A stretch of DNA of 64,000 nt from an uncultured cyanobacterium (lineage in GTDB: Bacteria; Cyanobacteriota; Cyanobacteriia; Phormidesmidales; Phormidesmidaceae). Under the pieces are notes generated by a model. The model saw only the letters and a program-made list of their open reading frames with translations. It did not search any database and was not told the origin of the DNA. Below are positions 524 to 18,767 of the stretch, piece by piece (within the stretch, counting starts at the first letter, position 1; every line of letters starts with the position of its first letter). The stretch spans positions 256,001 through 320,000 of the forward strand of contig CAWBZI010000007.1 of assembly GCA_963793265.1 (NCBI GenBank). Direction: 5' to 3'. The translations under genes and the position numbers were made by a program.

Positions 524-1534
524 TTAGAACAAACTGCTGAACGCGCGCGCCATATTGCTTGGCTGCAAAGCTGCCGCTGCTGCTGTCGGTTCGTAGCCGC
601 AGTGAACCATGCAGTCAGCACACTTGGGATTGCCGCTCTTGAAGCCGTATTCCTCCCAATTTGTGTTGTCTAGCAGTTCTTGGAACGTCTTGTAGTAGCC
701 TTCATTTAGCAAGTAGCAAGGCTTTTGCCAGCCTAAAACGCTGTAGCTAGGACTGCCCCAGGGCGTACAGTCATAGTCTTTTTGACCGGTTAAAAAGTCT
801 AAAAAGAGAGGATTGTGGTTGAAGTCCCAAGCCTTTTTCCCAGCGTTAAAAGGAGCCAAGATCTCTCTAAATAGGGCTTTCGTTTGTTCGCGCTGTAAAA
901 AGTGGTCTTGATCGGGAGCCCAGCGGTAGCCGTAGCCAGGCGACACCATAATGCCGTCTACTTCTAGCTCTGTAAGATAGTCAAATAAGTTTTGAATTTC
1001 TTTGGGATTGGTGCCCTCAAACACGGTGGTGTTTGTCGTAACCCGAAAGCCCTTGGCCTTAGCCGCTCGAATGGCGCTAACGGCAATATCAAACACACCT
1101 TTGCGATCAACGCATTGATCGTGCAGCTCCTTCATACCGTCTAAGTGAACGCTGAAGCTAAAATAGGGCGACGGCGAAAACTTAGACAGGCTCTTCTCTA
1201 GCAGCAGGCCATTTGTACAAAGATAAACAAACTTTTTGCGATCAATTAAGCCTTGAACGATCTCCTCAATTTGAGGGTGTAAAAGCGGCTCTCCCCCTGG
1301 AATAGAAACCACAGGTGCCCCGCATTCTTCTACCACAGCAAAACATTCTTCTGGTGAGAGCTGCTGCTTAAGAATCTCTTTAGTATGCTGAATTTTGCCG
1401 CAGCCCGAGCAAGCTAGGTTGCAGCGAAACAACGGTTCTAGCATCAGTACTAGCGGATACTTTTTGCGCCCTTTGAGCCTTTGAGTCACGAGATATTGAC
1501 CGACTGAAAGCGCTTGTTGGAGATGAATGCCCAT
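524..1534 (-). CDS. hpnH: Adenosylhopane-forming radical SAM enzyme HpnH
   Basis: [23 protein letters not shown] (CxxxCxxC), [13 protein letters not shown] and [14 protein letters not shown] motifs; shc cluster context. Confidence 0.95.
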
Positions 1535-1702
1535 TAACTTATCTGTTCCTCGCGGTTATTTCTGAATTATCTTTAGCAATGACTTACCCTAAGACAGTTT
1601 CTATAAAAATAGAAATCTGGTAAGACCTAATCTTTCAAGCAGCACATAAGCCTTTTACAAGGCTATTACTCTACTCTAGAATCAAATTAATGTTTTTTCA
1701 GC

Positions 1703-1710
1703 GCGATCGC
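1703..1710. repeat. HIP1 octamer GCGATCGC (one example; it recurs throughout the window)
   Basis: Also at 2770-2777, 3246-3253, 12221-12228 and many other sites; a cyanobacterial hallmark. Confidence 0.95.
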
Positions 1711-1852
1711 TCAAACGTTACGCATTTTTTGATACCTATCCCTTACTATTATTCTGATAGATATTCGCTTGTGATAAATTAATCCAACATTAATTTATTC
1801 CGTGTAACAAAGCAGCACAATCGTAACTATAACCGGTGTCTGAGGAAAAAGA

Positions 1853-2686
1853 ATGTTTACTGTTAATTCTGCGACTAATTCTGCTTTAGACTTGCTAAAA
1901 GCAACGAGTCGTACATTTTATATACCTATTAGCCTGCTACCCAAAGGTCTTAAAGAAGCCGTTGCCTCAGCTTATCTATGCATGAGAGCAATCGATCAAA
2001 TCGAAGATCATCCCGATTTGGACTATGTGGTAAAAGCCAAGCTGCTCAGGCAAATTAGCCTCAACTTACAGGCCGGAACCGCCTCGTCTTCAGCCGCAGA
2101 TTTTGCCGCCGGGCTCAGCGATTTTGATTCACACCTCGAAGAAGTCTCGCTCAGAATTGGTGAATGGGCCCTACTCGCCCCTGAAAGCATTGCCCCTCGT
2201 ATTTGGGACGCTACAGCAGCCATGGCTGACAGAATGGCCTATTGGGCCGAGCGTAACTGGCGGATTCAAACCGAAGCCGACTTGAACCAGTACACCTTTA
2301 GCGTGGCGGGCGCAGTCGGGCTCATGCTCTCAGATATCTGGGCTTGGCACGATGGCACCTCTACTAACCGCACGGATGCGATCAGCTTTGGCCGCGGCTT
2401 GCAGGCGGTGAATATTTTGCGCAACCACAGCGAAGATATGACCCGAGGCGCAGACTTTTATCCCGATGGCTGGAGCGATGCCGATATGCAAAGCTTCGCC
2501 CGCGAAAACTTAGCCAGAGCCGACGCCTACGCCGCCTCCCTACCCATTGGCCCGGCGCTGCTGTTTTGCAGAATTCCGCTCGCCCTAGCGCACGCGACGC
2601 TAGATGCGATGTCGCAAGGCAAAGAAAAGCTTACGCGCAATGATGTCTTAGCAATAGTGGCCCCGCTGAGCAAAATCGCGAGCTAG
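1853..2686 (+). CDS. sqs: Squalene synthase (phytoene/squalene synthase family)
   Basis: TSRTFYIPI, AYLCMRAIDQIED, YTFSVAGAVG and FGRGLQAVNILRN motifs; hopanoid context favours squalene over phytoene synthase. Confidence 0.85.
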   Translation: MFTVNSATNSALDLLKATSRTFYIPISLLPKGLKEAVASAYLCMRAIDQIEDHPDLDYVVKAKLLRQISLNLQAGTASSSAADFAAGLSDFDSHLEEVSLRIGEWALLAPESIAPRIWDATAAMADRMAYWAERNWRIQTEADLNQYTFSVAGAVGLMLSDIWAWHDGTSTNRTDAISFGRGLQAVNILRNHSEDMTRGADFYPDGWSDADMQSFARENLARADAYAASLPIGPALLFCRIPLALAHATLDAMSQGKEKLTRNDVLAIVAPLSKIAS

Positions 2687-2752
2687 CCGCGCCGCAGGTC
2701 GCTATAGGCAGACCACTATAAAATAGGGCCATTGTGAAGGCAATATCTGACC

Positions 2753-5524
2753 ATGCGTCTACCTAAGCTGCGATCGCCCCGATTTATCACTCGCTTTACG
2801 AACAGCGCCATTCGAGAGCGGCTGAATATTTCCAGGCTCGCTATCCAGCACTCTGGGCTGACCATTTTCTGCTGGATAGCGATCGCAGTTGCCGGTCTAT
2901 TTGCCTTTAGCTCGCTCAAATACGCCCTTTTCCCCGATATTACCTTTCCGGTTGTTGTCGTTAACGCCACCGCGCCTACGGCTACCGCGCTAGAGAGCGA
3001 ATCGCAGCTCACTAACCCGATTGAGCAACAGCTACAGGCGCTTGATGGTCTAAATGAAATGGTGTCTTCGACGTTTGCCGGGCGCAGCGTCACGAATTTA
3101 CGTTTCAAGGTCGGGACGAATCTGGCTGAAACAACCGCCGCCGTAGAAGCGAATATTGCAGCAGCGGACTTACCGGCCTCAGCAGATGTTGAGGTGGTGC
3201 CGCTTAACCTTAATGAAGAGACAGCGGTGAGCTACGCGATTACAAGCGATCGCCTCTCTACCGATGAGCTAGCTGCCTTGAGCGAGCGGGAAATCTTGCC
3301 TGCGCTGCGTTCAGTAGAAGGCGTACTGCGGGTTGATTTACTGGGTACCGGGATCGCTGCAAATGCCCTAGATGTCAGCAGCGAACCGAGTGAGAACTTT
3401 CTGGCAGATTTGCGCAACTCACCGACGCTCGTCCGGTTTGATGGTGAAGATGCACTGGCGTTTCAGGTTGTCAAGCGCGGCGATGCCAATACGCTAGAGG
3501 TGGTCAGTCGGTTAGAGGCAGAAGTTCAGCAGATTAGAGCGGATTTCCCTGACGTAGCGCTCTCGATGGCGGCTTCGCAGGCTGATTTTATTCGCGCTTC
3601 AACGCGGGCGACGATTGATTCTTTGATAGGGGCCGTTGCGATCGCAGTCTTGGTCATCTTCGGCTTTCTAAAAAGCTGGCGAGCCACCCTCATCACAGCG
3701 CTGGCCATTCCGCTTTCGCTGCTCGGCACCTGCATTGTCATGGCCGTTTACGGCTTTAATTTAGAAACCATCACGCTGCTCGCTTTGGCCCTGGTTATCG
3801 GCATTATCGTAGACGACGCTATTGTCGAAATTGAAAATATTATTCGTCATATCGAGCTAGGCCAAAGCCCGCGTCAGGCAGCGCTGATAGCCACAGATGA
3901 AATTGGACTGACGGTATCGGCTTCTACGCTGACGATTGTGGCTGTATTTTTGCCGGTTGCCTTTATGGGCGGGACGATTGGGCAGTTTTTCAAGCCGTTC
4001 GGGCTCACAATCTCGGCATCTGTGCTGGTATCTTTGCTGGTGGCGCGGACGCTGACGCCTGTACTGGCCGTTTATTGGCTGAAGCCGAAGCAGTACGGTA
4101 ATGGTGCGATCGCGCCTGAGTCTCATGTGAATGAAGAAAGCCTGGAAGAAACAGCGCCCGTATCTTGGTTGGAGCAAGGCTATAGCAGACTATTGTCCTG
4201 GTCGCTGGCCTATCGGTGGGCGGTTGTGGGAATTGCGATCGCTAGCTTCATTGCCGGAGTCGCAATCATTCCACTCATTCCCCAGGGCTTCATCCCACAG
4301 CTCGACCGGGGCGAATTCTACCTTAACTACACGGTGCCCCTACCGCAGGTGCCACAGAATGTCTCGCAAGGCACTTTTCTCGAACAGCAACAGAATCAAC
4401 AAAATTTCTCACAATCGCCTGTTGATCCTAGAGTGCGCTTACTACAACAATCTTTTGCGACCGGAGGAACTCTAGAAGAAACGGTGTTAACGCTGCCAGA
4501 CGTGGAATCAGTTTTGACTACTGTTGGCGGACAGGGTAGGCCAAATCAGGGCAGTTTATACATCAAGCTGAGAAGCGATCGCATGCTCGACACGGCCACC
4601 GTACAATCACAGCTTCGCCAAAAGCTACCCCCACAAAGCGAAGTCACCACCAGCGTAGAAGACGTTCAGTTTATTGATACGGGTGGTGAAAAGCCCCTAC
4701 AGATATCTTTGCTCAGCGATAATTTGGCCACGCTCAATCAGGCCGCTGCTGATGTTAAGTCTCAGATTGAAGATCTCCCTGGCTTTGCCGACGTGCGCGT
4801 ATCGACAGAAGAGAATACTGCCGAAACAACCACTGAAATCAATCATCGCAACGGCCAAAGGGCCGTGTTCATCAGCGCTAACCTGGCTAAAGGAGAAGCC
4901 TTGGGCGATGCCACCGATCAGGTAGTCGCTGTTGCTGAATCTGTTGTTCCACCAGACGTTCGCATTAGCTTAGGCGGCGACTCAGCTCGCATTGGAGAAG
5001 TATTAGGTAGCTTTGCAAGAACGCTCGTACTTGCCGTTTTCTGTATGCTCGCAGTCTTGTTCCTTCCTTTCGGAAGACTGCTAGAACCGGCAGTAGTCGG
5101 CCTTTCTCTACCGCTTTCAATCGTTGGCTCGATGTTAGCTTTGCTGGTCACTCGCAGCGATTTTGGCATGGTGTCTTTGTTAGGATTGCTGTTTTTGCTA
5201 GGCTTGCTCGACAAAAACGCGCTTTTGCTCATGGACTACACCAATCAGCTACGGCGAGCCGGTATGGCACGAACCGCCGCGATCGTGAAAACAGGGCTAG
5301 TGCGGCTACGTCCTATTTTAATGACAACGGCTTCGACCGTTTTAGGAATGCTGCCAATCGCCTTCGGACTAGGTGCAGGTTCCGAGCTGCGTCAGCCTTT
5401 AGCCGTCGCTATCATTGGCGGACTGCTGACATCCACGCTATTAAGCTTAGTCGTAGTGCCCGTCCTCTACAGTTTATTAGAAGATGGCTGGGCAAGAATT
5501 ACACGGCAACGCAAGCGGGCTTAA
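2753..5524 (+). CDS. RND permease, AcrB/AcrD/AcrF family, shortened (923 aa)
   Basis: FPDITFPVVVV, GIIVDDAIVEIENI (TM4), KNALLL (TM10) and RLRPILMTT (TM11). Confidence 0.9.
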   Translation: MRLPKLRSPRFITRFTNSAIRERLNISRLAIQHSGLTIFCWIAIAVAGLFAFSSLKYALFPDITFPVVVVNATAPTATALESESQLTNPIEQQLQALDGLNEMVSSTFAGRSVTNLRFKVGTNLAETTAAVEANIAAADLPASADVEVVPLNLNEETAVSYAITSDRLSTDELAALSEREILPALRSVEGVLRVDLLGTGIAANALDVSSEPSENFLADLRNSPTLVRFDGEDALAFQVVKRGDANTLEVVSRLEAEVQQIRADFPDVALSMAASQADFIRASTRATIDSLIGAVAIAVLVIFGFLKSWRATLITALAIPLSLLGTCIVMAVYGFNLETITLLALALVIGIIVDDAIVEIENIIRHIELGQSPRQAALIATDEIGLTVSASTLTIVAVFLPVAFMGGTIGQFFKPFGLTISASVLVSLLVARTLTPVLAVYWLKPKQYGNGAIAPESHVNEESLEETAPVSWLEQGYSRLLSWSLAYRWAVVGIAIASFIAGVAIIPLIPQGFIPQLDRGEFYLNYTVPLPQVPQNVSQGTFLEQQQNQQNFSQSPVDPRVRLLQQSFATGGTLEETVLTLPDVESVLTTVGGQGRPNQGSLYIKLRSDRMLDTATVQSQLRQKLPPQSEVTTSVEDVQFIDTGGEKPLQISLLSDNLATLNQAAADVKSQIEDLPGFADVRVSTEENTAETTTEINHRNGQRAVFISANLAKGEALGDATDQVVAVAESVVPPDVRISLGGDSARIGEVLGSFARTLVLAVFCMLAVLFLPFGRLLEPAVVGLSLPLSIVGSMLALLVTRSDFGMVSLLGLLFLLGLLDKNALLLMDYTNQLRRAGMARTAAIVKTGLVRLRPILMTTASTVLGMLPIAFGLGAGSELRQPLAVAIIGGLLTSTLLSLVVVPVLYSLLEDGWARITRQRKRA

Positions 5525-5558
5525 AGGACTTAGCTGCTAAATCACAGAGAGACATCGA

Positions 5559-6173
5559 ATGAGTACAGAGATCGTCAGCATTATTCTCGCTGCTATCAGT
5601 GCCTTACTAGGTTGGTTTTTCGGTACTCGCGCGGAGAGAGCAGCCAGAGAGCAATATCGACTAAACGCCATATCATTTGCTAGTAGTTGGTACTCCGACC
5701 TAAGGGCTTGGGCCTCCGAAGTTATTAGCTTGCTGAGCGAAGCTGCTGAACGGTGTGACGATACACAAGCAATTGATTTAAAACAAACGGAAGCTCTTGT
5801 GGTCTGTCGATATAGGCTGTCTGCTTTGATTGATCGCGGACGCTTTTTCTTGCCTAATAGACTGCATGAGACATACGGAACGCATAAGCCTGAAGCTTAC
5901 AAGGGAATTCGACATCCGGCACTTGATTACCTAGTTGCTGCGTATCAGATACTAGATGGCAGCGCAACAGTTTCAGAATTCGGATTTGACAATGAGAAAA
6001 GAGCACTCATTGAACTGAAATACCAATTTGTATCTGCTATTCAAGTTGTATTAGACCCTCGACTTCATACGAAAGAGATCAGCAGTTTAGTAGAAGACTC
6101 TCGTAAGGAAAAACTAGAGAAGGCATCGCCCATTGATAAGCTCCTAAATAAACTTTCCCGAGCAAAAAAATAA
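5559..6173 (+). CDS. Hypothetical protein with an N-terminal transmembrane helix
   Basis: 204-aa ORF with a hydrophobic N-terminus (IVSIILAAISALLGWFFG) and a GAGAG upstream. Confidence 0.65.
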   Translation: MSTEIVSIILAAISALLGWFFGTRAERAAREQYRLNAISFASSWYSDLRAWASEVISLLSEAAERCDDTQAIDLKQTEALVVCRYRLSALIDRGRFFLPNRLHETYGTHKPEAYKGIRHPALDYLVAAYQILDGSATVSEFGFDNEKRALIELKYQFVSAIQVVLDPRLHTKEISSLVEDSRKEKLEKASPIDKLLNKLSRAKK

Positions 6174-6269
6174 GCCATAGCCCTTCTGTTACATAAGTGG
6201 TAGCGATCAGCCCCGAACTTAACCAAATAACGGTCGTTACCCAATCCAACAGCGCTAATGTGAATTACG

Positions 6270-7379
6270 CTATGTTCTCCTAATATCGGGCATGTCATAA
6301 CCCCATTGCTCAATAAATGGTTGCCATCTATCTTTCACCACTTGCATAGCTTCTAGCGAAAAAGCATATTTGTTTTTACGATAGCTTTTTTGAGAATCAA
6401 GGTACGTCTGAAACAAAGGCTCCGCACTCTCCCATCCTGCTATCTCAAGCTGCGTATAAATCTGCTTCAAATGCCCTATCGGATCGGTTTCAAACGTCTC
6501 AAACTGTAGCTCTATAAAATCTTTCTCAGGCAGCGTTTTGGTATCATCAAAAAGCGCCTCCATCATTTTCGGATAGCTCTCTAAAATAGTCTCACTTACC
6601 GGCACATGCTCAAACGATTGCAGCGACAGCTCAGGTAAAAGCTTGTCGTAAAAGTTGAGCGTCGATTGGTAAACAATGTATGGATTTCGATAGATGTGAA
6701 TGAATTTAGCTTGGGGCCATAGCGATCGCAACCGCTCAATCCGACCCGTATACACCGGATTCTTAATCAATAGCTGCCTACCCGGACTTTGCATCCGCAG
6801 CTTCTTATACAGGTGCCTCATAGCATCCTGCCACGCTTCAATTTCTAGATCGTCACAGCCTTCAAAAAAGAGCCCAGCGTTAAAATTCTCAGTGAAGTTT
6901 TTCGGGAAATAAAGCCCGTGATAAAAAGACAAAAGCTGCATACTCGCCAGCGCAATTTCGTCCTCCTGAGGAGAATCTGGATTTACTGCTACTTTGTCAA
7001 TAAAGCGGCCTTCTGGCAGTGCCTTCTCTAGTACCGGACGCAGCAGATTGCCAAGCGTCAAAAAGTCCCACGGTAAACCTGTGGCCAGCGGCGCGATATA
7101 AGAAAACTGGGGAGAACGGCACAGCAGATTGTGCAAAAAAGTGGTGCCGCTGCGCCAGTGACCGACAATGAAGATAGGGGGAATTTGATTGGATTCGGGG
7201 AGAGGCGATCGCGCCACACTCCACCGTTCATACGTCGAGAAGGGCCAGCGCAATAGCGCCACCGACAAAATAATCGCCAGATGAACAGGATACTCACCTG
7301 CGCCGTTATGCCGTAGCAGAGCAAAAAGCGTTCTCAGATTCACACCCATCAACGGATGCAGGTATCGAGGAGAAGTCAT
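6270..7379 (-). CDS. PAPS-dependent sulfotransferase family protein
   Basis: 5'-PSB loop FIVGHWRSGTTFLHNLL, LLIKNP, and 3'-PB motif FIHIYRNPY..S. Confidence 0.9.
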   Translation of the reverse strand: MTSPRYLHPLMGVNLRTLFALLRHNGAGEYPVHLAIILSVALLRWPFSTYERWSVARSPLPESNQIPPIFIVGHWRSGTTFLHNLLCRSPQFSYIAPLATGLPWDFLTLGNLLRPVLEKALPEGRFIDKVAVNPDSPQEDEIALASMQLLSFYHGLYFPKNFTENFNAGLFFEGCDDLEIEAWQDAMRHLYKKLRMQSPGRQLLIKNPVYTGRIERLRSLWPQAKFIHIYRNPYIVYQSTLNFYDKLLPELSLQSFEHVPVSETILESYPKMMEALFDDTKTLPEKDFIELQFETFETDPIGHLKQIYTQLEIAGWESAEPLFQTYLDSQKSYRKNKYAFSLEAMQVVKDRWQPFIEQWGYDMPDIRRT

Positions 7380-7393
7380 ATCTTTTGTTTCAG

Positions 7394-8374
7394 CTAAATG
7401 TAGCCATTATCAACAAACCAATTCACCTCGCGCTGTAAAGCCGCCGAGATTGGCGTCTGTGGTAGCCCCAGTTCGCGGACAGCCTTAGAAGCATCGTAAT
7501 ACATCGTTTTAGTCCCCATCCGAACGCCGTCTAGCGGCACATTAGGCGCTTTGCCAAACCGGGCCAAAATATTCTCTTCGATCCAGGCCACACTCATCGG
7601 CACCGCGACCGGAATCGACTTCTCAGGCGCAGGTGTGCCGGTCATGGCTTCGAGCATATCCAGCATGGCCTTCAGCTTCATATTTTGATTGCCTAGAATG
7701 TAGCGATCGCCTGCCTTCCCCTTTTGCAGCGCCAGCAAATGCCCCCAAGCCACATCCTCAACGTCGATCACATTCAGCCCCGTATCCAAATAAAACGGCA
7801 TTTTCTGCTTCAAAAACCGCACAAAAATATTCCCCGTCGGTGTCGGCCCAATATCCCAAGCCCCAATCGGTGAAGTCGGATTCACAATCACCACATCCTG
7901 ACCGGCCTCAGCCGCCTTCACCGCCTCCTGCTCCGCCCAATATTTTGACTTACGATAGTGCCCAATCAGCTCGTCAACACCCGACTGATGCGTCTCGTCT
8001 ACCGCAACGCCTTTCTCACCTAAGCCAATCGCCGCCGCCGAGCTAGTGTAAACCGTGCGCGCTACACCCGCTCGATTCGCAGCAGCCAAACAGTTCCGCG
8101 TACCCAAAACATTATCTAGCTGAAGCTGATCCTGATCGGTTTGCCAAAGAGAATAGTAGGCCGCAATATGGAACAGCGCCTCGCAGCCCTCCATTTTCTC
8201 CCACAGGTCATCATCGTTCAAATTTCCAGTGACCGTCTCCACCTTAAGCCCCCGCAAATTGTCGAGGCGACTCGTAGGCCGTACTAAAGCGCGGACGCTA
8301 TGTCCCTCTTGCAGCAGCAGGCGAACCACATTTGCGCCAATAAATCCGGTTCCGCCTGTGACAAATATTTGCAT
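7394..8374 (-). CDS. hpnA: Hopanoid-associated NAD-dependent sugar epimerase HpnA
   Basis: VTGGTGFIG, HIAAYYSLW, YRKSK (YxxxK) and PTPTG motifs; cluster context. Confidence 0.92.
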   Translation of the reverse strand: MQIFVTGGTGFIGANVVRLLLQEGHSVRALVRPTSRLDNLRGLKVETVTGNLNDDDLWEKMEGCEALFHIAAYYSLWQTDQDQLQLDNVLGTRNCLAAANRAGVARTVYTSSAAAIGLGEKGVAVDETHQSGVDELIGHYRKSKYWAEQEAVKAAEAGQDVVIVNPTSPIGAWDIGPTPTGNIFVRFLKQKMPFYLDTGLNVIDVEDVAWGHLLALQKGKAGDRYILGNQNMKLKAMLDMLEAMTGTPAPEKSIPVAVPMSVAWIEENILARFGKAPNVPLDGVRMGTKTMYYDASKAVRELGLPQTPISAALQREVNWFVDNGYI

Positions 8375-8466
8375 CGGTTACGATTTTCTGTTGTTTATTG
8401 ATAGTCTATTCTCTTCAGAGAATTGTTACACGCCGAAGATACCCTACACCTTAAAAAAAGATTTTA

Positions 8467-10101
8467 ATGGATCTTATTGTCTTTTTATTCAAATCCTCCT
8501 GGAAATCAGCGGCGATCGCTCTCATCACAGGCATCATCAGCGGCGGCTGTAGCGCCGGACTCATCGCCCTCATCAGCCAAACCGTCGCCCAAAGCCAAGT
8601 CCCCTCAAGCACCACCATTACAGCCTTCATCGCACTAGGGGCCGTTACCCTAGCCGCTGCTACCGCCGCCCGCATTCTCCTCGTCCGCTTCTCCCAGGCC
8701 GTCGTCTTCGATCTGCAAATGCGCCTCAGCCGCCAAATTTTAGCAACCGAACTTAAGCCACTAGAGACAATCGGTCTTCCTCGTTTACTCGTCATTCTCA
8801 CAGAAGATATTCAGGTTGTGGCCACGGCTGTGGGATTCGTGCCCGTACTGACAATTAATATTGCCAGCGCGGCAGGCTGCATGGTGTATATTTCGTGGCT
8901 CTCTTGGCAGGTTTTGGCGCTGGTGCTGCTGCTGACAGCGATCGCAACCGTAAGCTGCCAATGGTTCCTCATTCAGGGCAAACAGGCCCTCGCCGCCGCC
9001 CGTCAGCAGCAAGACCGCCTGTTCCAACATTTTCGCAGTCTCATTGATGGCGTCAAAGAGCTAAAGCTGCAATACAACGGACGCCAAGATTTCCTCAGCG
9101 CAGATCTAGAATGGACAGCGAGGCAGATGCAGCGCTCTAATCAGCGGGGTCTGAGCCTATTAGCAGTGCTCGATAGCTGGGGCAAGTTTATTTACTTTTT
9201 TGCAGTTGGCCTCATCCTATTTTTACTACCCACATGGATTGACATTAGTCTGCAAACTCGCTTTGCCTACGTGCTCACGTTCACTTATCTACTCGGCCCT
9301 ATGGAGAGCCTAGTTAACAAGCTACCGATGTTGAGCAAAGCAGGAATTGCGCTTGGCAGGATTAAGGCACTCGGTTTAAGTTTAAACTCGCCAGATAACC
9401 AGGCCGCACCCAAGCCAATCGTCCAAAGCCCTCACTTACAGCTACAGCAGGTGAGCCATACGTATCGAACCGATCAGGGTGATCGCGAATTTACCCTCGG
9501 CCCCATAGATCTCTCCCTGAAACCAGGAGAACTCATTTTCATCGTCGGTGGCAACGGCAGTGGCAAATCCACCCTCGCCAAGCTACTAACCGGCCTCTAT
9601 CAGCCGCAGTCCGGCTCAATTCAACTAAACGGCCAGACAATAGACAACACCAACCAGGAATGGTATCGCCAGCATTTCTCCGCTGTTTTCTCAGACTTTT
9701 ACCTATTCGAGCGCTTATTAGGTGCTAACAAACCTACTGACGACACTACCGCCTTAAAATATTTGAAACAGCTCCAGCTCGATCACAAAGTCAGCGTTGA
9801 TCAAGGGCAGTTTTCAACAACAGCACTTTCTCAGGGCCAGCGCAAACGGCTCACCCTGCTAAACGCCTACCTACAAAGCCGCCCGATATACCTCTTTGAC
9901 GAATGGGCCGCCGACCAAGATCCCACATTTAAAGACATTTTCTACACTCAAATTTTGGCTAATCTCAAATCTCAAGGCAAAATTATCTTTGTCATCAGCC
10001 ATGACGACCAGTACTTTCATCTGGCCGACCGCTTAATCAAGCTTGACTATGGCAGCATCGTTTACAATGGCTCTCCTGAACAGGCCGCTTATGCCAGATA
10101 A
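8467..10101 (+). CDS. Fused ABC exporter, cyclic-peptide exporter (SyrD/PvdE/YojI) family
   Basis: TM domain plus GVKELKL, Walker A GGNGSGKST, FSAVFSDFYLF, LSQGQRKRL and FDEWAADQDP. Confidence 0.9.
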   Translation: MDLIVFLFKSSWKSAAIALITGIISGGCSAGLIALISQTVAQSQVPSSTTITAFIALGAVTLAAATAARILLVRFSQAVVFDLQMRLSRQILATELKPLETIGLPRLLVILTEDIQVVATAVGFVPVLTINIASAAGCMVYISWLSWQVLALVLLLTAIATVSCQWFLIQGKQALAAARQQQDRLFQHFRSLIDGVKELKLQYNGRQDFLSADLEWTARQMQRSNQRGLSLLAVLDSWGKFIYFFAVGLILFLLPTWIDISLQTRFAYVLTFTYLLGPMESLVNKLPMLSKAGIALGRIKALGLSLNSPDNQAAPKPIVQSPHLQLQQVSHTYRTDQGDREFTLGPIDLSLKPGELIFIVGGNGSGKSTLAKLLTGLYQPQSGSIQLNGQTIDNTNQEWYRQHFSAVFSDFYLFERLLGANKPTDDTTALKYLKQLQLDHKVSVDQGQFSTTALSQGQRKRLTLLNAYLQSRPIYLFDEWAADQDPTFKDIFYTQILANLKSQGKIIFVISHDDQYFHLADRLIKLDYGSIVYNGSPEQAAYAR

Positions 10102-10762
10102 CACACCAAAAGTTCAGGTTATTTTAGTGCCTGCGGGCGCTGAATACTCAGCCGTCAAAAGGGGGCTACGCGGCGTGCAAAACAAACCAGAGCTGATCGC
10201 AATTCCAGCAGGGCCGCAGGGGGTAAGGCAGTTTTTACAAGATCAAACAGAACAGAATTGGACTGATAGCAATGTGCTGATAATGGGACTAGGCGGCAGT
10301 CTTTCTCTAGACTATGGCGTGGGAGATGGCGTTGTTATAGAGAAGATTTGGAATGGATTTGAGGCAGCGCAGACGTATACGTGCAGTTCGGAGTTGACGG
10401 CATGGATTGAGGCAGCATTAGGACTCGATCGCGTGGTGGGGGTGACGTGCGATCGAGTGATCACTCAAGTAAAAGAGAAAATAGAATTAGGCGATCGCTA
10501 TCAGGCCAGTGTTGTAGAGATGGAAGGCGCTATCTTCGCCAAAGCTCTACCAAACTGCGCCATCATACGCGTTATCAGCGATAGCCTTCAGCACGAACTC
10601 CCGAACATTTCACAGAGCATATCTTCAGACGGGTCTATAAGAGTAGGTGCGATCGCCCTCAGCTTCCTCAGCCGCCCTATCCCCGCCATTCGACTCATAG
10701 CAGGCGCGCTCAAAGGACTATCAACACTAACAGCGCTAACTGCCAAACTGTTCAAAGCGTAA
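10091..10762 (+). CDS. hpnG: Hopanoid-associated nucleoside phosphorylase-fold protein HpnG
   Basis: GLGGSL, VVEMEG and RVISD motifs. The likely start is ATG 10091 (MPDNTPK), overlapping the ABC stop. Confidence 0.75.
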   Translation: MPDNTPKVQVILVPAGAEYSAVKRGLRGVQNKPELIAIPAGPQGVRQFLQDQTEQNWTDSNVLIMGLGGSLSLDYGVGDGVVIEKIWNGFEAAQTYTCSSELTAWIEAALGLDRVVGVTCDRVITQVKEKIELGDRYQASVVEMEGAIFAKALPNCAIIRVISDSLQHELPNISQSISSDGSIRVGAIALSFLSRPIPAIRLIAGALKGLSTLTALTAKLFKA

Positions 10763-10773
10763 ATCTTTCCATC

Positions 10774-11943
10774 CTAAGCATCGCTATACACCCGCCCTTT
10801 CCAAGCTCCACCTCTCCCCGCCCAATGAAGCCGAGCCGAATCAACCGTCATCACCGAATACATCAGCGCAATCAACGGCAGCGCCAGCGCTGAAACACGC
10901 GATCCACCATACAGCTTCAGCATCGGCCAGTAAGCGTAGGCCATCAGTAGCCAGCCTGCTAATCCTGCGATCGCGATCCAAAAATTCCCTAACAACAACC
11001 CAAGCAAAAATCCAATCGGTGGCACTAAATACACCAGCACCATCCCAAAAACAGTACCTATCAGCAGCAAAGGCGAGTAGTTAAGCTGAGTGTAGGCGCT
11101 ACGAGTCACCATATTCCAAAGACTGGCCAAATCAGAATACGGGCGCAGGCTGCGAACAGTTGTGCTGAGCCCTAGCCAAATCGCGCCATTCTCCTTAATC
11201 GCCGCCCCGAGTGCGCAGTCATCAATTAGGGCGTGACGAATCTCTTTTAGTCCGTCGATTTTCTCTAAAGCACTAAAGCGTACTAAAGCGCAGCCTCCGG
11301 CAGCAGCAGCCGTTTTCTTAGCAGGATTGTTCACCCACGGAAACGGATAGAGCAGCTGAAAAAAGAAGACGAACGAAGGAATCAACAGATATTCCCAGAA
11401 GCTCTCGCAGCGTAGCTGAACCATTAAGGAGACAAGATCTAGCTCTTCTGTTTCCGCCTTACTTACAAGCTGTTGCAGCGTGTCTGAACTGTGTTCAATA
11501 TCAGCGTCAGTAAACAGAACATAGTCAGGAGGGCTTTGCTGTAGATACTGAAAGCCTTGTTCCATCGCCCAAAGTTTTCCTGTCCAGCCAGCGGGTAGGG
11601 GCTTACCTGAGAGGATAGTTGAGCTTTTTGCGTTGAACTGATTGAGCGTTGACTGCGTGATCGCCCCCGTTCCATCTGTGCTCTGATCGTCAACCAATAC
11701 AATTGAAAAGGAGCCAGGGTAGGTTTGAGTGAGGTGCGATCGCAAAACAACTTCAATCAGCTCAGCCTCATCCCGCGCCGGAATCACTACCGCCACGTTC
11801 GGCCAGGCGTCTCTAGATAGGATCTTTTGGCCCTCTAGCCTTTGATCAGCTCGCCAAAACTGACCCCAGCTCACTAGCATTCCTATCCAAATTATCGCTG
11901 AAACGATAGTCAGTCCACATAAAACGCCTTCCATATTACTCAT
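10774..11943 (-). CDS. hpnB: Hopene-associated GT2 glycosyltransferase HpnB
   Basis: VIPARDEA, VDDQSTDGT, LPAGWTGKLWA, FTDADI, AAAGGCALV, ALIDDCALG, W.MV.RSAYTQL and WKGRVY motifs. Confidence 0.92.
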   Translation of the reverse strand: MSNMEGVLCGLTIVSAIIWIGMLVSWGQFWRADQRLEGQKILSRDAWPNVAVVIPARDEAELIEVVLRSHLTQTYPGSFSIVLVDDQSTDGTGAITQSTLNQFNAKSSTILSGKPLPAGWTGKLWAMEQGFQYLQQSPPDYVLFTDADIEHSSDTLQQLVSKAETEELDLVSLMVQLRCESFWEYLLIPSFVFFFQLLYPFPWVNNPAKKTAAAAGGCALVRFSALEKIDGLKEIRHALIDDCALGAAIKENGAIWLGLSTTVRSLRPYSDLASLWNMVTRSAYTQLNYSPLLLIGTVFGMVLVYLVPPIGFLLGLLLGNFWIAIAGLAGWLLMAYAYWPMLKLYGGSRVSALALPLIALMYSVMTVDSARLHWAGRGGAWKGRVYSDA

Positions 11944-12051
11944 CTGTGTTTTACGCTATGTTGTATGAAATCCTATGACTGATGCCTCGTCCATAGATGA
12001 GAGGTCGGTGAGAGAACCTGAAAACATTGTTGTCAAAGACCTTATTCTAAT

Positions 12052-14001
12052 ATGCAAACAGCAACAAGACCCGTTACCGATCTAGCTAAAGGAATTGCTG
12101 CCGCTCAAAACCACCTGATTTCTATTCAATATCCAGACGGATACTGGTGGGCGCAGCTAGAGTCTAATGCTTCGATTACCGCTGAAGTCGTGCTGCTGCA
12201 TACGGTTTGGGGCACAGATAGCGATCGCTTCCCCAGAAAAAAAACGGAGGCGTATTTGCGATCACAGCAATGCCCCCACGGCGGCTGGGAACTCTTCTTT
12301 GGCGATGGCGGAGAACTCAGCACCTCCGTCGAAGCTTACATGGCCCTTAGACTCCTCGGCATCCCAGCCACCGACCCGGCCCTTCTTCGCGCAAAAGACT
12401 TCATCCTCAGCCATGGCGGCATCAGCAAAACCCGCATCTTCACCAAATTCCACCTTGCCCTCATCGGCTGCTACAACTGGCAGGGCCTCCCCTCCCTTCC
12501 CGCCTGGATCATGCAGCTAGAGCCGCCTTTCCCAGTCAACATCTACGAGCTATCAAGCTGGGCACGTGGCAGCACCGTCCCGCTACTCATCGTCTTTGAC
12601 AAAAAGCCCGTCTACTCACCTAGCCCAGGCTTCAACCTCAATGAACTCTACGCAGAGGGCATTGAAAATGTTGTGTGGGAGCTACCCCAAAATAATGACT
12701 GGAGCGATGCCTTTCTCTGGTTAGACAAAGCATTCAAACTAGCCGAATCCTTCGAGGCCATTCCTCTTCGCGAGGAGAGTCTTAAGAAAGCACAAAAGTG
12801 GATTCTAGAACGGCAGGAAGCGACAGGCGACTGGGGCGGCATTATTCCAGCTATGCTCAACTCTCTTTTAGCGCTGCGAGCCCTAGACTACGACCTCAAC
12901 AATCCGGTTGTACAGCGAGGACTAGAGGCGCTTGATAACTTTGCCGTAGAAGACAAAGACACCTACTGGATGCAGCCTTGCATTTCCCCCGTATGGGATA
13001 CTGCCCTAGTGATACGAGCATTGGCCGCTTCAGGGCTCGAACCAGATCATCCTGTGCTCGTTAGAGGTGGAGAATGGCTGCTCAAAAAACAAATATTAGA
13101 CTACGGCGATTGGGCCGTCAAAAATCCCAACGGTAAGCCTGGCGGCTGGGCCTTTGAATTTGAAAATCGGTTTTATCCAGACGTAGATGACACGGCAGTT
13201 GTTGTCATGGCTTTGCAGGCAGTGCAGCTACCGAATGAAGCATTAAAGCAACAATCTATAGCCAGCGCCGTTCGTTGGATTGCAACGATGCAGTGCGGCA
13301 CAGGCGGCTGGGCCGCTTTTGATATCAACAACGATCAAGACTGGCTCAACGCCATTCCCTACGGCGATCTCAAAGCCATGATCGATCCTAGCACCGCAGA
13401 TATTACCGCTCGTGTGCTAGAGATGCACGGAAAGCTAAAAGGCAAAGAAACTTTAGTCAGTAGCTATAGTGCAGATCTAACACCCTACCGACTTTCACGC
13501 GGCCTCAAGTATTTAAAAGAAGAACAATGTGAAGATGGCAGTTGGTTTGGTCGGTGGGGCGTCAACTACATCTATGGCACCAGTGGAGCCCTTTCAGCGC
13601 TAGCCCTTACCGCGCCGCGTCAGTGCCAGGAGAATATTAAGCGAGGCATTGGCTGGCTAGTAAGCTGTCAAAACGAAGACGGCGGCTGGGGCGAAACCTG
13701 TCACAGCTACAGCAATCCTAAATTAAAAGGCCAAGGCGTGAGCACTGCCTCACAAACGGCCTGGGCGCTATTGGGTCTACTCGACACGCATTTTTATCTG
13801 AGCGATGAGGCCAAACTAGCCGTTCAAAAAGGCATTCAATATCTGTTGAACACACAACAGCAAGACGGCACCTGGGAAGAGAAAGAATTCACAGGCACTG
13901 GCTTTCCAGAACACTTCTATCTTCGCTACCACCTCTATTATCAGCACTTTCCCCTCATGGCACTGGGCCACTATCAAAGGCTTAAAACAACGTTTGAATA
14001 G
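12052..14001 (+). CDS. shc: Squalene-hopene cyclase
   Basis: Catalytic YPDVDDTA (DXDD), multiple QW repeats (QxxDGxW), SPVWDT and WFGRWGVNYIYGT. Confidence 0.98.
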   Translation: MQTATRPVTDLAKGIAAAQNHLISIQYPDGYWWAQLESNASITAEVVLLHTVWGTDSDRFPRKKTEAYLRSQQCPHGGWELFFGDGGELSTSVEAYMALRLLGIPATDPALLRAKDFILSHGGISKTRIFTKFHLALIGCYNWQGLPSLPAWIMQLEPPFPVNIYELSSWARGSTVPLLIVFDKKPVYSPSPGFNLNELYAEGIENVVWELPQNNDWSDAFLWLDKAFKLAESFEAIPLREESLKKAQKWILERQEATGDWGGIIPAMLNSLLALRALDYDLNNPVVQRGLEALDNFAVEDKDTYWMQPCISPVWDTALVIRALAASGLEPDHPVLVRGGEWLLKKQILDYGDWAVKNPNGKPGGWAFEFENRFYPDVDDTAVVVMALQAVQLPNEALKQQSIASAVRWIATMQCGTGGWAAFDINNDQDWLNAIPYGDLKAMIDPSTADITARVLEMHGKLKGKETLVSSYSADLTPYRLSRGLKYLKEEQCEDGSWFGRWGVNYIYGTSGALSALALTAPRQCQENIKRGIGWLVSCQNEDGGWGETCHSYSNPKLKGQGVSTASQTAWALLGLLDTHFYLSDEAKLAVQKGIQYLLNTQQQDGTWEEKEFTGTGFPEHFYLRYHLYYQHFPLMALGHYQRLKTTFE

Positions 14002-14090: not shown

Positions 14091-15158
14091 CTACAGCCCA
14101 GACCCTCTTATCTCATACCGAATCTCTTCAACCGGCAAACCTTCGTTATCACAATCGCCATAGCGCAACTGCAACCGCTTCTCCCCGGCATGTTCACCCA
14201 AACTTCCCCCATAGCGCTCAGCCTCAGTTCCCAGGCTTTGAATCCGAATTTTGCCATTAAATACCGTCGCCCGCGCTAAATAAATCACCAGATCATCTCG
14301 CGACGGACGATTCACTGTAGTACTCGCCGTCAGGTGGGCAACCCCCCTTTCATCCATCTCCTGAGCTAACGCCATTGCCGTATTGCGAATGCCGGTAATA
14401 GCCACAATCGCAGAGGCGATCGCCATCGTGATATCCACCCCTTCATCCGTAAAAATCTGCTGGCTCGCCAAATACTCAAAATTCTGCTCGCCCAAGTCAT
14501 CACGAATCCGGCGATGAATCAAATTCTTTGGATGGTAGTCCGTCAGCGCCCCTACAATCGCCCCACAGGCCGCACGGGGTTCACGCCACGGAGCCTCGCG
14601 CGTTTTGCCATACACCACGTGCTTACCGCCTTCTCGCAGCCGCCCCACATGCGTCTTCAAATCAATCGCTACCAAAGAGATTGATCGAGGATTACCCGTA
14701 TAAAGCTGTCTTTTTAAGCCCTCGTCTAGCTCGTGAGCAACCGTCACATGCGCCAGCGTCGCTCCATTATCCGTACCGCCGCCCGCTGGGAAAAAAGCTT
14801 CTAGCTTCAGCTCGCCAATTTCAGAAAGGGTTGCAAATCGGGAGGCCACTACGTCGCGATAGCGTTTAGTCGCTTCGCCCTGATGAATGCGATCGCCACA
14901 GTTGGTATAGGCCAGCGTCGTCACCACGCTCGGCAAGCTCAAATCTGCCCCACACGACTTTACCGCCGTCGGACTAGCCGCCGCAAACTGCAGCTCATCA
15001 CGCAAAATTTGCAATCCCTTGATCAGCGCATAGCGGTCTTTTACAATCTCATTCAAATAGTTGTGATAGGCATTTCGCTCCATACCAAAGCTTGCAGGCA
15101 ACTGCCAAAACGTATCTACTCGCTTTTGAGTGGCCTCAGCATCAAAGGGTAATGTCAT
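14091..15158 (-). CDS. Conserved protein, putative LCIB/LCIC-like (theta-type) carbonic anhydrase family
   Basis: Ordered motifs TTLAYTNCGDR ... THVG ... AACGAIVGAL resemble LCIB N(L)CRDE / PHI / CACGAL Cys-His-Cys Zn ligands. Confidence 0.6.
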   Translation of the reverse strand: MTLPFDAEATQKRVDTFWQLPASFGMERNAYHNYLNEIVKDRYALIKGLQILRDELQFAAASPTAVKSCGADLSLPSVVTTLAYTNCGDRIHQGEATKRYRDVVASRFATLSEIGELKLEAFFPAGGGTDNGATLAHVTVAHELDEGLKRQLYTGNPRSISLVAIDLKTHVGRLREGGKHVVYGKTREAPWREPRAACGAIVGALTDYHPKNLIHRRIRDDLGEQNFEYLASQQIFTDEGVDITMAIASAIVAITGIRNTAMALAQEMDERGVAHLTASTTVNRPSRDDLVIYLARATVFNGKIRIQSLGTEAERYGGSLGEHAGEKRLQLRYGDCDNEGLPVEEIRYEIRGSGL

Positions 15159-17107: not shown

Positions 17108-17875
17108 GTGGCATTCTTAATATTTGACTTTGACGGCACCATTGCCGATACGCTAGCCGCCATTGTGCGAATTACCAATCGCATTGCCCCGGAGTATGGC
17201 TATTCGCCAACAACACCCGAAAAGCTGACGTATTACCAATCACTCAGTACGCAGGAGATGCTCAAACAGGCCGAAATTCCGCTGTTTAGGCTACCCTTTT
17301 TGCTGCGCCGCGTCCGCAGAGAAATGACGGATGAGCTACCTGAAGTTCCTGTTGCTCAAGATCTGCCTGAAACGCTCAGAGAGCTAGTGGCTGCGGGTCA
17401 TCATCTAATGGTGATGAGTTCTAACTCCAAGCGTAATATCCAGGGCTTTTTGCAGCTTCACGGCATTCATGATGTCTTTGATTCTGTGCAGGGGGGCGTG
17501 GGGCTGCTGAGCAAAGCTAGAGTGCTCAAGCGAATCATACAAAAAGGAGGGCTCGATTTTTCGCAGGTCATCTATGTGGGTGACGAAACGAGAGATATCG
17601 ATGCCTCTAAGCAAGTCGGTATCCTTGTAGCTGCGGTCACCTGGGGATTTAGCAGCCGCGATGCCTTAGCAGCCCAAGACCCTGCGTTTTTAATCGATCA
17701 CCCACGCCAGCTTATCGGCGCTGCGCAAACGCTCGTAAACCCGAGCTGGGTCAGAAGAGACTACCGATCGCCTAACTACACGACTAATCGCAGGCGCAGC
17801 ACAGACGCACCTAACCTTGTTGATTTCAAGATTGATTCCAAGCAGGATGAGAGAGAAGCGCACTCATCGTCCTGA
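17108..17875 (+). CDS. HAD-IA hydrolase (phosphoglycolate phosphatase-like)
   Basis: FDFDGTIADT, MSSN, YVGDETRD and AVTWGF motifs. Confidence 0.9.
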   Translation: MAFLIFDFDGTIADTLAAIVRITNRIAPEYGYSPTTPEKLTYYQSLSTQEMLKQAEIPLFRLPFLLRRVRREMTDELPEVPVAQDLPETLRELVAAGHHLMVMSSNSKRNIQGFLQLHGIHDVFDSVQGGVGLLSKARVLKRIIQKGGLDFSQVIYVGDETRDIDASKQVGILVAAVTWGFSSRDALAAQDPAFLIDHPRQLIGAAQTLVNPSWVRRDYRSPNYTTNRRRSTDAPNLVDFKIDSKQDEREAHSSS

Positions 17876-18767
17876 CGCCTCTCAACTGGTTAGAAAGCGG
17901 AAGATGCGCAGCAGGAGACTTCTCCAAGTCCCAGATAAACTCATTGGGATAGCGCGTCCAAACGCCATCTGTTGACTTCCAGAGAAGCTGTATCCACAGA
18001 CGATCCCAATCTTTACCTAAGCGCACCCATAAGTCTCGCTGCTTACGCCAGCCAAACTTGTCTTCAGAGTACAGCCCCCACATAATGTCGATAGCCTGTA
18101 AGTCGATGACTGGAATCTGGCCGACCTCAGTAAAATAAACCCACTTACGCTCTACTGCATTTGCGCCTGCTAGCTCACATAGCTTTTGGTTTGTCAGTTT
18201 GTCAGCCTGTTCGTATTCTTTTTGAACCAGCAGCATTTGCAGCTCACGGTAGTCAAGATCTTTATCCGATTGAGGGCACACCAGTCCATCTGGAAAGTCT
18301 TCAATCAATGCTTTAGCAGCATCAGAGGCGCTACCCTGTAAAGCTCGAGAATATAAAACCTGATAGGCACTGCCGTGAGCAGCGGTGGGCTCGTCTGGAT
18401 TTTTCTTAGACATGCGATCGCGCACAAACGATGCCAGAGCCTCTTCGCCCTGCAACCTAAGTTCTGAAGCGCCTGATTCTGAAGCGCCTGATTCTGAAGC
18501 ACTTGACTCTGAAGCACTTGATTCTGAAGCACTTGACTCTGAAGCACCTAGTTCCGCCAGTTTCCGAATGGCTAGAAGCTGCTTTTTAAGACTATTAGAA
18601 GACAACCGCGCAACCAAAGAAGCCAGCTCACTCGCACGACCTTCTAAAGTCGAGCTATTGGTAGGTGTTTGACCGCTGTTCTGAGGAAGAGCAGAGGTCT
18701 TATCAGAGACTCTATCAGAGGCTCTATTTTCAGCGAATTGAGCAGATTCTATTGCGTTTGAAGACAT
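17826..18767 (-). CDS. gun4: GUN4 (Ycf53) Mg-chelatase cofactor
   Basis: GUN4 domain DYRELQMLL..EQADKLT..RKWVYFTEV..IDIMWGLYSEDKFG..WTRYPNEFIW..HLPLSNQLRGVR. Confidence 0.88.
   Translation of the reverse strand: MSSNAIESAQFAENRASDRVSDKTSALPQNSGQTPTNSSTLEGRASELASLVARLSSNSLKKQLLAIRKLAELGASESSASESSASESSASESGASESGASELRLQGEEALASFVRDRMSKKNPDEPTAAHGSAYQVLYSRALQGSASDAAKALIEDFPDGLVCPQSDKDLDYRELQMLLVQKEYEQADKLTNQKLCELAGANAVERKWVYFTEVGQIPVIDLQAIDIMWGLYSEDKFGWRKQRDLWVRLGKDWDRLWIQLLWKSTDGVWTRYPNEFIWDLEKSPAAHLPLSNQLRGVRTMSALLSHPAWNQS
18463..18547. repeat. In-frame 15-bp tandem repeat (about 5.7 copies) in gun4
   Basis: TCTGAAGC(G/A)C(C/T)TGA(T/C) units encode (G/S)ASES repeats on the minus strand. Confidence 0.95.

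What the first reader, a model, noticed from the sequence alone, without database searches (positions are those of the whole stretch)
6270..8374. Sulfotransferase apparently co-transcribed with hpnA: candidate sulfated-hopanoid pathway
Seen: an intact PAPS-binding sulfotransferase starts 14 bp after the hpnA stop, in the same orientation, inside an hpnH/sqs/hpnG/hpnB/shc cluster. Known: canonical hpn clusters (hpnA-H, hpnN, hpnP etc.) do not include a sulfotransferase. Inference: it may sulfate a bacteriohopanepolyol or its glycoside, giving a lipid class I am not aware of being genetically explained, analogous to sterol sulfates.
Basis: partly seen in the sequence, partly recalled or inferred. 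Interest (0 to 1): 0.8.

Follow-up and report, generated by a model that had tools for sequence, protein, structure and literature searches.

The report
Sulfotransferase for a hidden hopanoid sulfate
A sulfate-transferring enzyme gene sits among hopanoid (bacterial sterol-like lipid) genes here and in bacteria of several phyla and is found almost only in hopanoid-capable genomes, so it likely makes a sulfated hopanoid, a predicted membrane lipid that routine analyses would probably miss.

Summary
Observation confirmed: an intact 369-aa sulfotransferase starts 14 bp after hpnA in a cyanobacterial hpn cluster. The exact hpnA-ST pairing is local, but the hopanoid link is broad. The enzyme belongs to one clade (SH-aLRT 99); 66 of 68 clade genomes have shc against 3 of 10 outgroup genomes. 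In 201 evenly drawn cyanobacteria, 21 of 21 carriers have shc against 100 of 201 overall. Core hpn genes lie in 30 of 68 clade loci and 0 of 10 outgroup loci. It is a full-length but non-orthologous homologue (33%) of the Bacteroides gene syntenic with cholesterol sulfotransferase BT_0416. Azospirillum brasilense Sp7 carries the gene in its hpn cluster and is the only one of 48 producers in PMC12583986 showing adenosylhopane alone, with no Rohmer products; this fits a hidden product but also low expression. Best reading: O-sulfation of the C35-hopanoid side chain (inferred). Co-transcription, activity and product are untested; my searches found no sulfated hopanoid in print. The scan noted the same idea on three other genomes.

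The parts
6270..7379 (-). Sulfotransferase (369 aa) of the hopanoid-linked clade; likely PAPS-dependent
   Evidence: PF13469 110.8 bits; invariant motif residues; model pLDDT 95.5, closest solved folds Stf9 2z6v TM 0.71 and Stf1 2zq5 TM 0.62; clade and synteny
7394..8374 (-). hpnA, hopanoid-associated NAD-dependent epimerase/reductase (326 aa)
   Evidence: TIGR03466 450.6 bits above cut-off; stop 14 bp before the ST start
524..1534 (-). hpnH adenosylhopane synthase
   Evidence: TIGR03470 547 bits above cut-off
1853..2686 (+). squalene synthase-like gene
   Evidence: best match TIGR01559 77 bits, below cut-off; 73-81% identical genes at the same place in relatives
2753..5524 (+). AcrB-type RND permease conserved in cyanobacterial hpn-ST clusters; candidate hopanoid exporter (inferred; no hpnN found in this genome)
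   Evidence: RND families; family in 11 of 80 loci; hpnN query without match in the genome
8467..10101 (+). ABC exporter of the cyclic-peptide-export type, conserved in the cluster
   Evidence: TIGR01194 454.6 bits above cut-off; family in 12 of 80 loci
10043..10762 (+). hpnG-like nucleosidase/phosphorylase
   Evidence: TIGR03468 54.7 bits, below cut-off; PF01048
10774..11943 (-). hpnB glycosyltransferase
   Evidence: TIGR03469 552 bits above cut-off; strand checked
12052..14001 (+). shc squalene-hopene cyclase
   Evidence: TIGR01507 876.8 bits above cut-off

Best explanation
The gene encodes an intact sulfotransferase of a hopanoid-linked clade that likely uses PAPS to O-sulfate the polyol side chain of an extended (C35) hopanoid, which would give an anionic bacteriohopanepolyol sulfate. 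Inferred route in this genome: Shc makes diploptene, HpnH adenosylhopane and the HpnG-like protein ribosylhopane (established functions of these families); C35 is then reduced to bacteriohopanetetrol, possibly by HpnA (unproven, disputed); the sulfotransferase then adds sulfate. In relatives the same clade sits beside an HpnO-like aminotransferase and would sulfate aminobacteriohopanetriol. Because one clade pairs with both partners, the site is more likely a hydroxyl common to both products than the C35 group; C32 or C33 is favoured only by the A. brasilense data, since a sulfate there would block periodate cleavage (inference from periodate chemistry).
For: Shown: (1) shc in 66 of 68 clade genomes, 3 of 10 outgroup genomes. 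(2) Even draw of 201 cyanobacterial genomes: 21 of 21 with a clade gene (48% identity or more, one split) have shc, base rate 100 of 201; in families f3 (1 of 5), f4 (1 of 14) and f30 (1 of 3) the only shc genome is the only clade-ST genome, and in two of these three the ST lies within about 1 kb of shc. (3) In the genus sample, 18 of 21 shc-positive and 0 of 15 shc-negative genomes have the clade gene, while 33-37% homologues occur in three shc-negative ones. (4) Core hpn gene in 30 of 68 clade loci (29 of 53 loci of 10 kb or more); core hpn gene, HpnA-like SDR within 1.6 kb or HpnO-like gene within 400 bp in 51 of 68; 0 of 10 outgroup loci; gene orders differ among Cyanobacteriota, Pseudomonadota, Bacteroidota, Balneolota, Planctomycetota and Thermodesulfobacteriota. 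(5) SDR near in 35 loci, HpnO-like near in 7, both in 0 of 68; the aminotransferase is 53% identical to the one ending a Streptomyces hpn operon. (6) 33% identity over 316 aa (E 2e-53) to the Bacteroides finegoldii gene behind cysQ-SLC13-cysC-cysD-cysN, the order described for Bt_0411-0416, whose product sulfates cholesterol (PMC9417993 passages). (7) APS kinase present in the genome. (8) A. brasilense Sp7 has SDR-hpnM-ST-PON-hpnN-shc-hpnG-hpnH; in PMC12583986 it gave no Rohmer products and 100% adenosylhopane, the only such case among 48 producers in Table S6. The LC-MS method cited there was run in positive-ion mode with an inclusion list in a sister paper (PMC11844350).
Against: No sulfated hopanoid has been observed: none of the 63 structures in PMC12583986 is sulfated and paper searches found none. 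No activity or expression data. The BT_0416-type genes fall outside the clade, with the non-hpn outgroup, so substrate cannot be transferred by orthology; that outgroup also sits by polyketide synthases, so the wider family takes varied acceptors. 17 of 68 clade loci, 10 of them 10 kb or longer and including all four Acetobacteraceae/Acidisoma loci, show no hpn-linked neighbour by my cut-offs, and 2 of 68 clade genomes gave no shc match. The A. brasilense result is a single strain that also showed no C30 hopanoids, so low pathway flux explains it equally; Skermanella aerolata and Microvirga massiliensis also gave no Rohmer products yet had ordinary BHPs, and I could not test the other 47 producers for this gene. 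The three genome samples overlap and kin are not independent. HpnO and HpnA exclude each other within the genus but not generally: 7 of 11 HpnO-positive genomes among 50 also have an HpnA-family gene at E 4e-70 or better.
Confidence: 0.55

Rival explanations
1. The product is still a sulfated hopanoid, but the acceptor is a further-modified one: the sugar of an HpnB glycoside, or a side chain oxidised or epimerised by the dedicated HpnA-like SDR and opened or trimmed by the paraoxonase-like protein.
For: The HpnA-like SDR paralogue lies within 1.6 kb in 35 of 68 loci and a paraoxonase-like gene (PF01731) in 15 of 68; among 61 relatives the paralogue (67% or more to the query) was found only in 5 clade-ST genomes; hpnB is present here and in 13 of 80 loci.
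Against: This genome has neither the SDR paralogue nor the paraoxonase-like gene. Paraoxonase-like proteins start with hydrophobic leader-like stretches (read by eye), so they likely act outside the cytoplasm, away from PAPS.
Confidence: 0.17
2. Sulfation is a transient activation step: the sulfate leaves in an elimination, decarboxylation or ring closure that gives a neutral hopanoid (for example an anhydro or shortened side chain).
For: Sulfotransferase folds used this way are among the structural matches: CurM and olefin-synthase ST domains, retinol dehydratase, sorghum LGS1 (their chemistry recalled, LGS1 from its entry title). An SDR plus lactonase could give a C35 acid with a beta-hydroxyl at C33 (inference).
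Against: These matches are weak (TM about 0.33-0.39) compared with Stf9/Stf1 (0.71, 0.62). The closest characterised homologue type makes a stable sterol sulfate. No anhydro product was reported for A. brasilense.
Confidence: 0.1
3. The enzyme sulfates a non-hopanoid lipid (quinone, carotenoid, glycolipid or envelope glycan) that is useful in hopanoid-containing membranes and is therefore inherited with hpn genes.
For: JGI names three homologues 'omega-hydroxy-beta-dihydromenaquinone-9 sulfotransferase' (P0101, P0176, P0207), the Stf3 activity (PMC6469627 passage). Many Elainellaceae-type loci have the gene away from hpn genes.
Against: No carotenoid, quinone or glycan gene family recurs beside the clade in 80 loci, whereas hpn families do, in different orders and phyla; near-complete dependence on shc.
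Confidence: 0.13
4. Chance neighbourhood: an exopolysaccharide-type or orphan sulfotransferase that landed beside hpnA.
For: The genome holds 12 PF13469 matches in 10 reading frames; the hpnA-ST junction and the AT-rich 204-aa gene next to it are peculiar to this genome among the loci seen.
Against: All co-occurrence and synteny counts above; this is the only one of the genome's sulfotransferases with a strong match to the BT_0416 type (E 6e-47, next 1e-4).
Confidence: 0.04

Closest known systems
Bacteroides cholesterol sulfotransferase BT_0416 (Le et al. 2022, PMC9417993)
   Same: Same length class (367-369 aa) and full-length homology to its syntenic equivalents in B. finegoldii and Parabacteroides distasonis (33% and 30%); acceptor would likewise be a polycyclic isoprenoid alcohol.
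   Different: Separate branch of the tree; BT_0416 lies behind PAPS-synthesis genes and acts on dietary sterol, this clade lies with hpn genes and would act on a self-made lipid. BT_0416 itself was not aligned, only the syntenic genes.
Mycobacterium Stf3 (Rv2267c) sulfomenaquinone sulfotransferase; Stf1/Stf9 structures
   Same: Homologues carry the Stf3-type name from JGI; best solved folds are Stf9 and Stf1; sulfation of an isoprenoid lipid.
   Different: Stf3 works with the P450 Cyp128 on a menaquinone; no P450 family recurs beside this clade. The Stf3 sequence was not obtained or aligned.
Canonical hpn clusters (hpnA-hpnR, shc) of Rhodopseudomonas, Burkholderia, Zymomonas, Streptomyces
   Same: shc, hpnH, hpnA, hpnB pass curated cut-offs; hpnG-like gene present.
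   Different: A sulfotransferase is not mentioned in the main text or the 8 supplements of the 2025 Alphaproteobacteria survey, which states that no further candidate genes were evident near the clusters. hpnI, hpnN, hpnM, hpnL and hpnO were not found in this genome with the queries used.

Membership tests
PAPS-dependent sulfotransferase (PF13469) | Profile match above the curated cut-off | tested here: met
   110.8 bits, cut-off 27
PAPS-dependent sulfotransferase (PF13469) | Intact cofactor-binding motifs and sulfotransferase fold | tested here: met
   G73/W75/R76/G78/T79/T80, R231, S239 invariant in 85 sequences (motif roles recalled); model pLDDT 95.5 matches Stf9 at E 1.6e-10
PAPS-dependent sulfotransferase (PF13469) | Sulfuryl transfer from PAPS to an acceptor | not testable with these tools
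   needs an assay
BT_0416-type cholesterol sulfotransferase | Full-length homology | tested here: met
   33% over 316 aa, E 2e-53, to the syntenic B. finegoldii gene
BT_0416-type cholesterol sulfotransferase | Orthology and position behind cysQ-SLC13-cysC-cysD-cysN | tested here: not met
   separate branches in a quick tree; neighbours are hpn genes
Stf3 (Rv2267c) sulfomenaquinone sulfotransferase | Orthology to Rv2267c | not tested
   sequence not obtained; only JGI names on homologues
Stf3 (Rv2267c) sulfomenaquinone sulfotransferase | Operon with a Cyp128-type P450 | tested here: not met
   no P450 among the window's neighbours or the recurrent neighbour families that I annotated
hpn hopanoid biosynthesis cluster | shc and hpnH above cut-off | tested here: met
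   876.8 and 547.1 bits
hpn hopanoid biosynthesis cluster | hpnG | tested here: inconclusive
   best match TIGR03468 but 54.7 bits against 187.1; conserved in the cluster in relatives
hpn hopanoid biosynthesis cluster | Hopanoids made by this organism | not testable with these tools
   no lipid data

The most novel reading that the evidence does not exclude
A widespread clade of hopanoid sulfotransferases makes bacteriohopanepolyol sulfates, a bacterial counterpart of sterol sulfates, in about a fifth of hopanoid-capable cyanobacteria (21 of 100 in the draw) and in marine and soil bacteria of at least five other phyla. Sulfated at C32 or C33, these lipids would escape both positive-ion LC-MS and Rohmer degradation, forming an uncounted hopanoid pool and explaining why Azospirillum brasilense seems to stop at adenosylhopane. 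The paired HpnA-like SDR is a candidate for the missing ribosylhopane reductase.
Probability: 0.45. Interest if true: 0.85.

Novelty: new variant of a known kind. Interest (0 to 1): 0.72.

Why it matters
Hopanoids are major bacterial membrane lipids and geological biomarkers, and their inventory rests on two methods that a side-chain sulfate could defeat. A sulfated class would add an anionic hopanoid, a new step to a well-studied pathway, and a possible sulfur-bearing precursor pool for sediments. The idea is cheap to test: a cultured, tractable carrier exists (A. brasilense Sp7) with an unexplained lipid profile, and the expected ions are calculable.

Tried and rejected
Conserved hpnA-ST operon: rejected as a general feature; canonical hpnA is 4.8-5.1 kb from the ST in the four closest loci that have it. 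My recall that Le et al. 2022 found BT_0416 through Stf3 was wrong: the text has no Stf3 or Rv2267c. General mutual exclusion of hpnO and hpnA: holds in the genus sample (5 of 6 subclade-B genomes have the aminotransferase and 0 of 6 an HpnA-type gene; 14 of 15 subclade-A genomes have an HpnA-type gene and 0 of 15 the aminotransferase) but not in 50 wider genomes, so it is not used as proof that HpnA is the ribosylhopane reductase; PMC5462960 already raises that idea and cites a mutant study against it. Sulfation at C35 was my first guess; it is disfavoured only if the A. brasilense result reflects a hidden product. RNA runs: no RNA holder listed. Promoter scan: 0 sites, uninformative. Checking Skermanella or Azospirillum names among 120 homologues of an Azospirillaceae ST: none listed, so the two other Rohmer-negative strains remain untested. 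ESM Atlas gave only generic sulfotransferase clusters. No solved structure of a close relative. HpnP not identified: one B12 radical-SAM gene is the slr0320 type, another had no NCBIfam match at 1e-30. Paper search returned only unrelated papers; PMC8776678 and PMC12858407 mention sulfotransferases only for polyketide clusters. The careful tree did not finish; both ST trees are quick trees without bootstrap, and fragments under 280 aligned residues were left out. No complex prediction was run.

Full report
Observation. The two genes are as described: hpnA at 7394-8374 (-) and a 369-aa ORF at 6270-7379 (-), 14 bp apart. HpnA passes TIGR03466. The ORF passes PF13469; the residues I read as its PAPS-binding motifs are invariant in 85 homologues, and a confident model (pLDDT 95.5) is closest to mycobacterial Stf9 and Stf1. 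The model has three N-terminal helices, the second moderately hydrophobic, which may contact the membrane (inference). The block from 524 to 14001 holds hpnH, a squalene synthase-like gene, an RND permease, an unrelated 204-aa gene, the ST, hpnA, an ABC exporter, an hpnG-like gene, hpnB (minus strand) and shc. The closest proteins are from cyanobacteria. Co-transcription is plausible from spacing only.

Is the link more than chance? I fetched the best 80 of 304 genomic loci encoding relatives, mapped their genes and built a quick tree with relatives from the window's genus. One clade of 90 rows has SH-aLRT 99. After dropping two same-genome duplicates it covers 68 loci; 10 loci fall outside. 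A core hpn gene lies in 30 of 68 clade loci (29 of the 53 that are 10 kb or longer); counting an HpnA-like SDR within 1.6 kb or an HpnO-like aminotransferase within 400 bp raises this to 51 of 68; the outgroup scores 0 of 10, and four of its loci follow a polyketide synthase. Seventeen clade loci show no such neighbour, seven of them on short contigs. At genome level shc was found in 66 of 68 clade genomes (one in two pieces below cut-off) and 3 of 10 outgroup genomes. Because those loci were picked by similarity, I also used draws not picked by me. Among 36 genomes of the genus, 18 of 21 with shc and 0 of 15 without have the clade gene. Among 201 cyanobacterial genomes, 100 have shc and 21 the clade gene, all 21 with shc; seven more have only 34-37% homologues, five of them with shc. 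In three families where a single sampled genome has shc, that genome is the one with the clade gene. These samples overlap and kin are not independent, so I give no p-value; the repeated, differently ordered linkage in six phyla is the stronger argument.

What is and is not conserved. The hpnA-ST junction is local. The closest relatives have hpnH directly upstream. More widely the ST is flanked by a distinct HpnA-like SDR (246-358 bits on TIGR03466, below cut-off) in 35 loci, often with a paraoxonase-like gene (15 loci), or by a class III aminotransferase in 7 loci (an eighth at 1.7 kb), never both. That aminotransferase has no dedicated NCBIfam model hit, but is 53% identical to the one ending a Streptomyces hpnE-shc-hpnH operon, so I call it HpnO-like. 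Within the genus, aminotransferase and HpnA-type genes sort with two ST subclades; in 50 wider genomes 7 of 11 aminotransferase carriers also have an HpnA-family gene. This genome gave no match to the SDR paralogue, paraoxonase-like, HpnO-like, hpnN, hpnM, hpnL or hpnI queries (completeness 99%), and has APS kinase. Its likely acceptor is therefore BHT or an HpnB product.

Closest characterised enzyme. A plasmid-collection search returned Bacteroides finegoldii and Parabacteroides distasonis genes that follow cysQ, an SLC13 permease, cysC, cysD and cysN. Le et al. 2022 (PMC9417993, passages read) describe Bt_0411-0415 as PAPS-supply genes before BT_0416, which sulfates cholesterol in vitro and in vivo. 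The window protein aligns to these at 33% and 30% over most of its length and is the only strong match in its genome. They branch outside the hpn clade: same family of lipid sulfotransferases, not orthologues. JGI gives three homologues the Stf3 name; Stf3 itself was not compared (function from a review passage, PMC6469627).

A possible footprint in published lipid data. Azospirillum brasilense Sp7 plasmid p1 carries SDR, hpnM, ST, paraoxonase-like gene, hpnN, shc, hpnG, hpnH in one block, and its ST falls in the clade. In Sinninghe Damste et al. 2025 (PMC12583986; I read the abstract, passages, sections 3.3, 4.1.1 and the first part of 3.4, all of Table S6 and the first of 45 parts of Table S5) this strain gave no Rohmer products and 100% adenosylhopane, the only one of 48 producers to do so, though it has hpnG. 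The paper notes that Rohmer cleavage needs vicinal hydroxyls. The LC-MS method it cites (Hopmans 2021, not seen) is described as positive-ion with an inclusion list in PMC11844350 (passages). A sulfate at C32 or C33 would prevent formation of bishomohopanol and ionise poorly in positive mode (my inference). Against this, the strain also showed no C30 hopanoids, two other strains were Rohmer-negative for reasons the authors put down to detection limits, and I could not check the other strains for the gene. It is a lead, not support of the same weight as the genomics.

Mechanism. Shown: intact ST gene, clade, linkage to hopanoid genes, homology to a sterol sulfotransferase type. From established family functions: diploptene, adenosylhopane, ribosylhopane (PMC12583986). 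Inferred: C35 reduction or amination by the neighbour, PAPS-dependent O-sulfation of the side chain, export by the RND or HpnN transporter. The enzyme that reduces ribosylhopane to BHT is stated to be unknown; HpnA has been proposed and questioned (PMC5462960 passages; Schmerk 2015 not seen). I put 0.55 on direct side-chain sulfation, 0.17 on a further-modified hopanoid acceptor, 0.10 on transient activation, 0.13 on a non-hopanoid lipid and 0.04 on chance.

Novelty. Searches for hopanoid with sulfotransferase (14 papers listed, none on this by title and abstract start; two opened), bacteriohopanepolyol with sulfated (0) and six phrases such as sulfated hopanoid and BHT sulfate (0) found no description. 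The library lacks most subscription journals, including much organic geochemistry, so this is not proof of absence. Three earlier notes of this scan reach the same idea on other genomes; I saw them after forming my reading and do not count them as evidence. I class this as a new variant of a known kind: a known enzyme family in a known pathway, predicting an undescribed lipid class, with a direct test available.

Noticed in passing
window 5559-6173 (+): 204-aa gene with low GC (0.437, GC3 0.36) and no Pfam or NCBIfam match, convergent with the ST; no match in any of the 80 loci or elsewhere in the genome, so likely a recent insertion into the cluster.
   Followed up: partly
window 14091-15158 (-): 355-aa gene after shc with no Pfam or NCBIfam match and no match in the 80 loci.
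   Followed up: partly
window 2753-5524 and 8467-10101: An AcrB-type RND permease and a cyclic-peptide-type ABC exporter are conserved inside cyanobacterial hpn clusters that show no hpnN; candidates for an alternative hopanoid export route.
   Followed up: partly
24 genomes outside the genus: All 14 shc-positive genomes have an HpnA-type gene and none of the 10 shc-negative ones does; five clade-ST genomes have the SDR paralogue with no second HpnA-type match, suggesting it replaces hpnA.
   Followed up: partly
L039:11059-12234 and 14 other loci: Paraoxonase-like (PF01731) genes with leader-like N-termini in or near ST-SDR blocks of Alphaproteobacteria and Bacteroidota; function unknown.
   Followed up: partly
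L018:505-1665: A second, very divergent sulfotransferase (34%) at the far end of the same hpn cluster.
   Followed up: no
L066, L070, L071, L080: Outgroup sulfotransferases of Verrucomicrobiota and Ca. Moanabacter directly follow large PKS or PKS-NRPS genes.
   Followed up: no
G032:C1:4394307-4395461 and G290:C1:4392683-4393769: The clade gene is split in two frames in two single-contig genomes; frameshift or sequencing error not resolved.
   Followed up: no
window 17826-18767 (-): Protein with a short tandem peptide repeat (SESSA/SESGA units) near 18385-18560.
   Followed up: no
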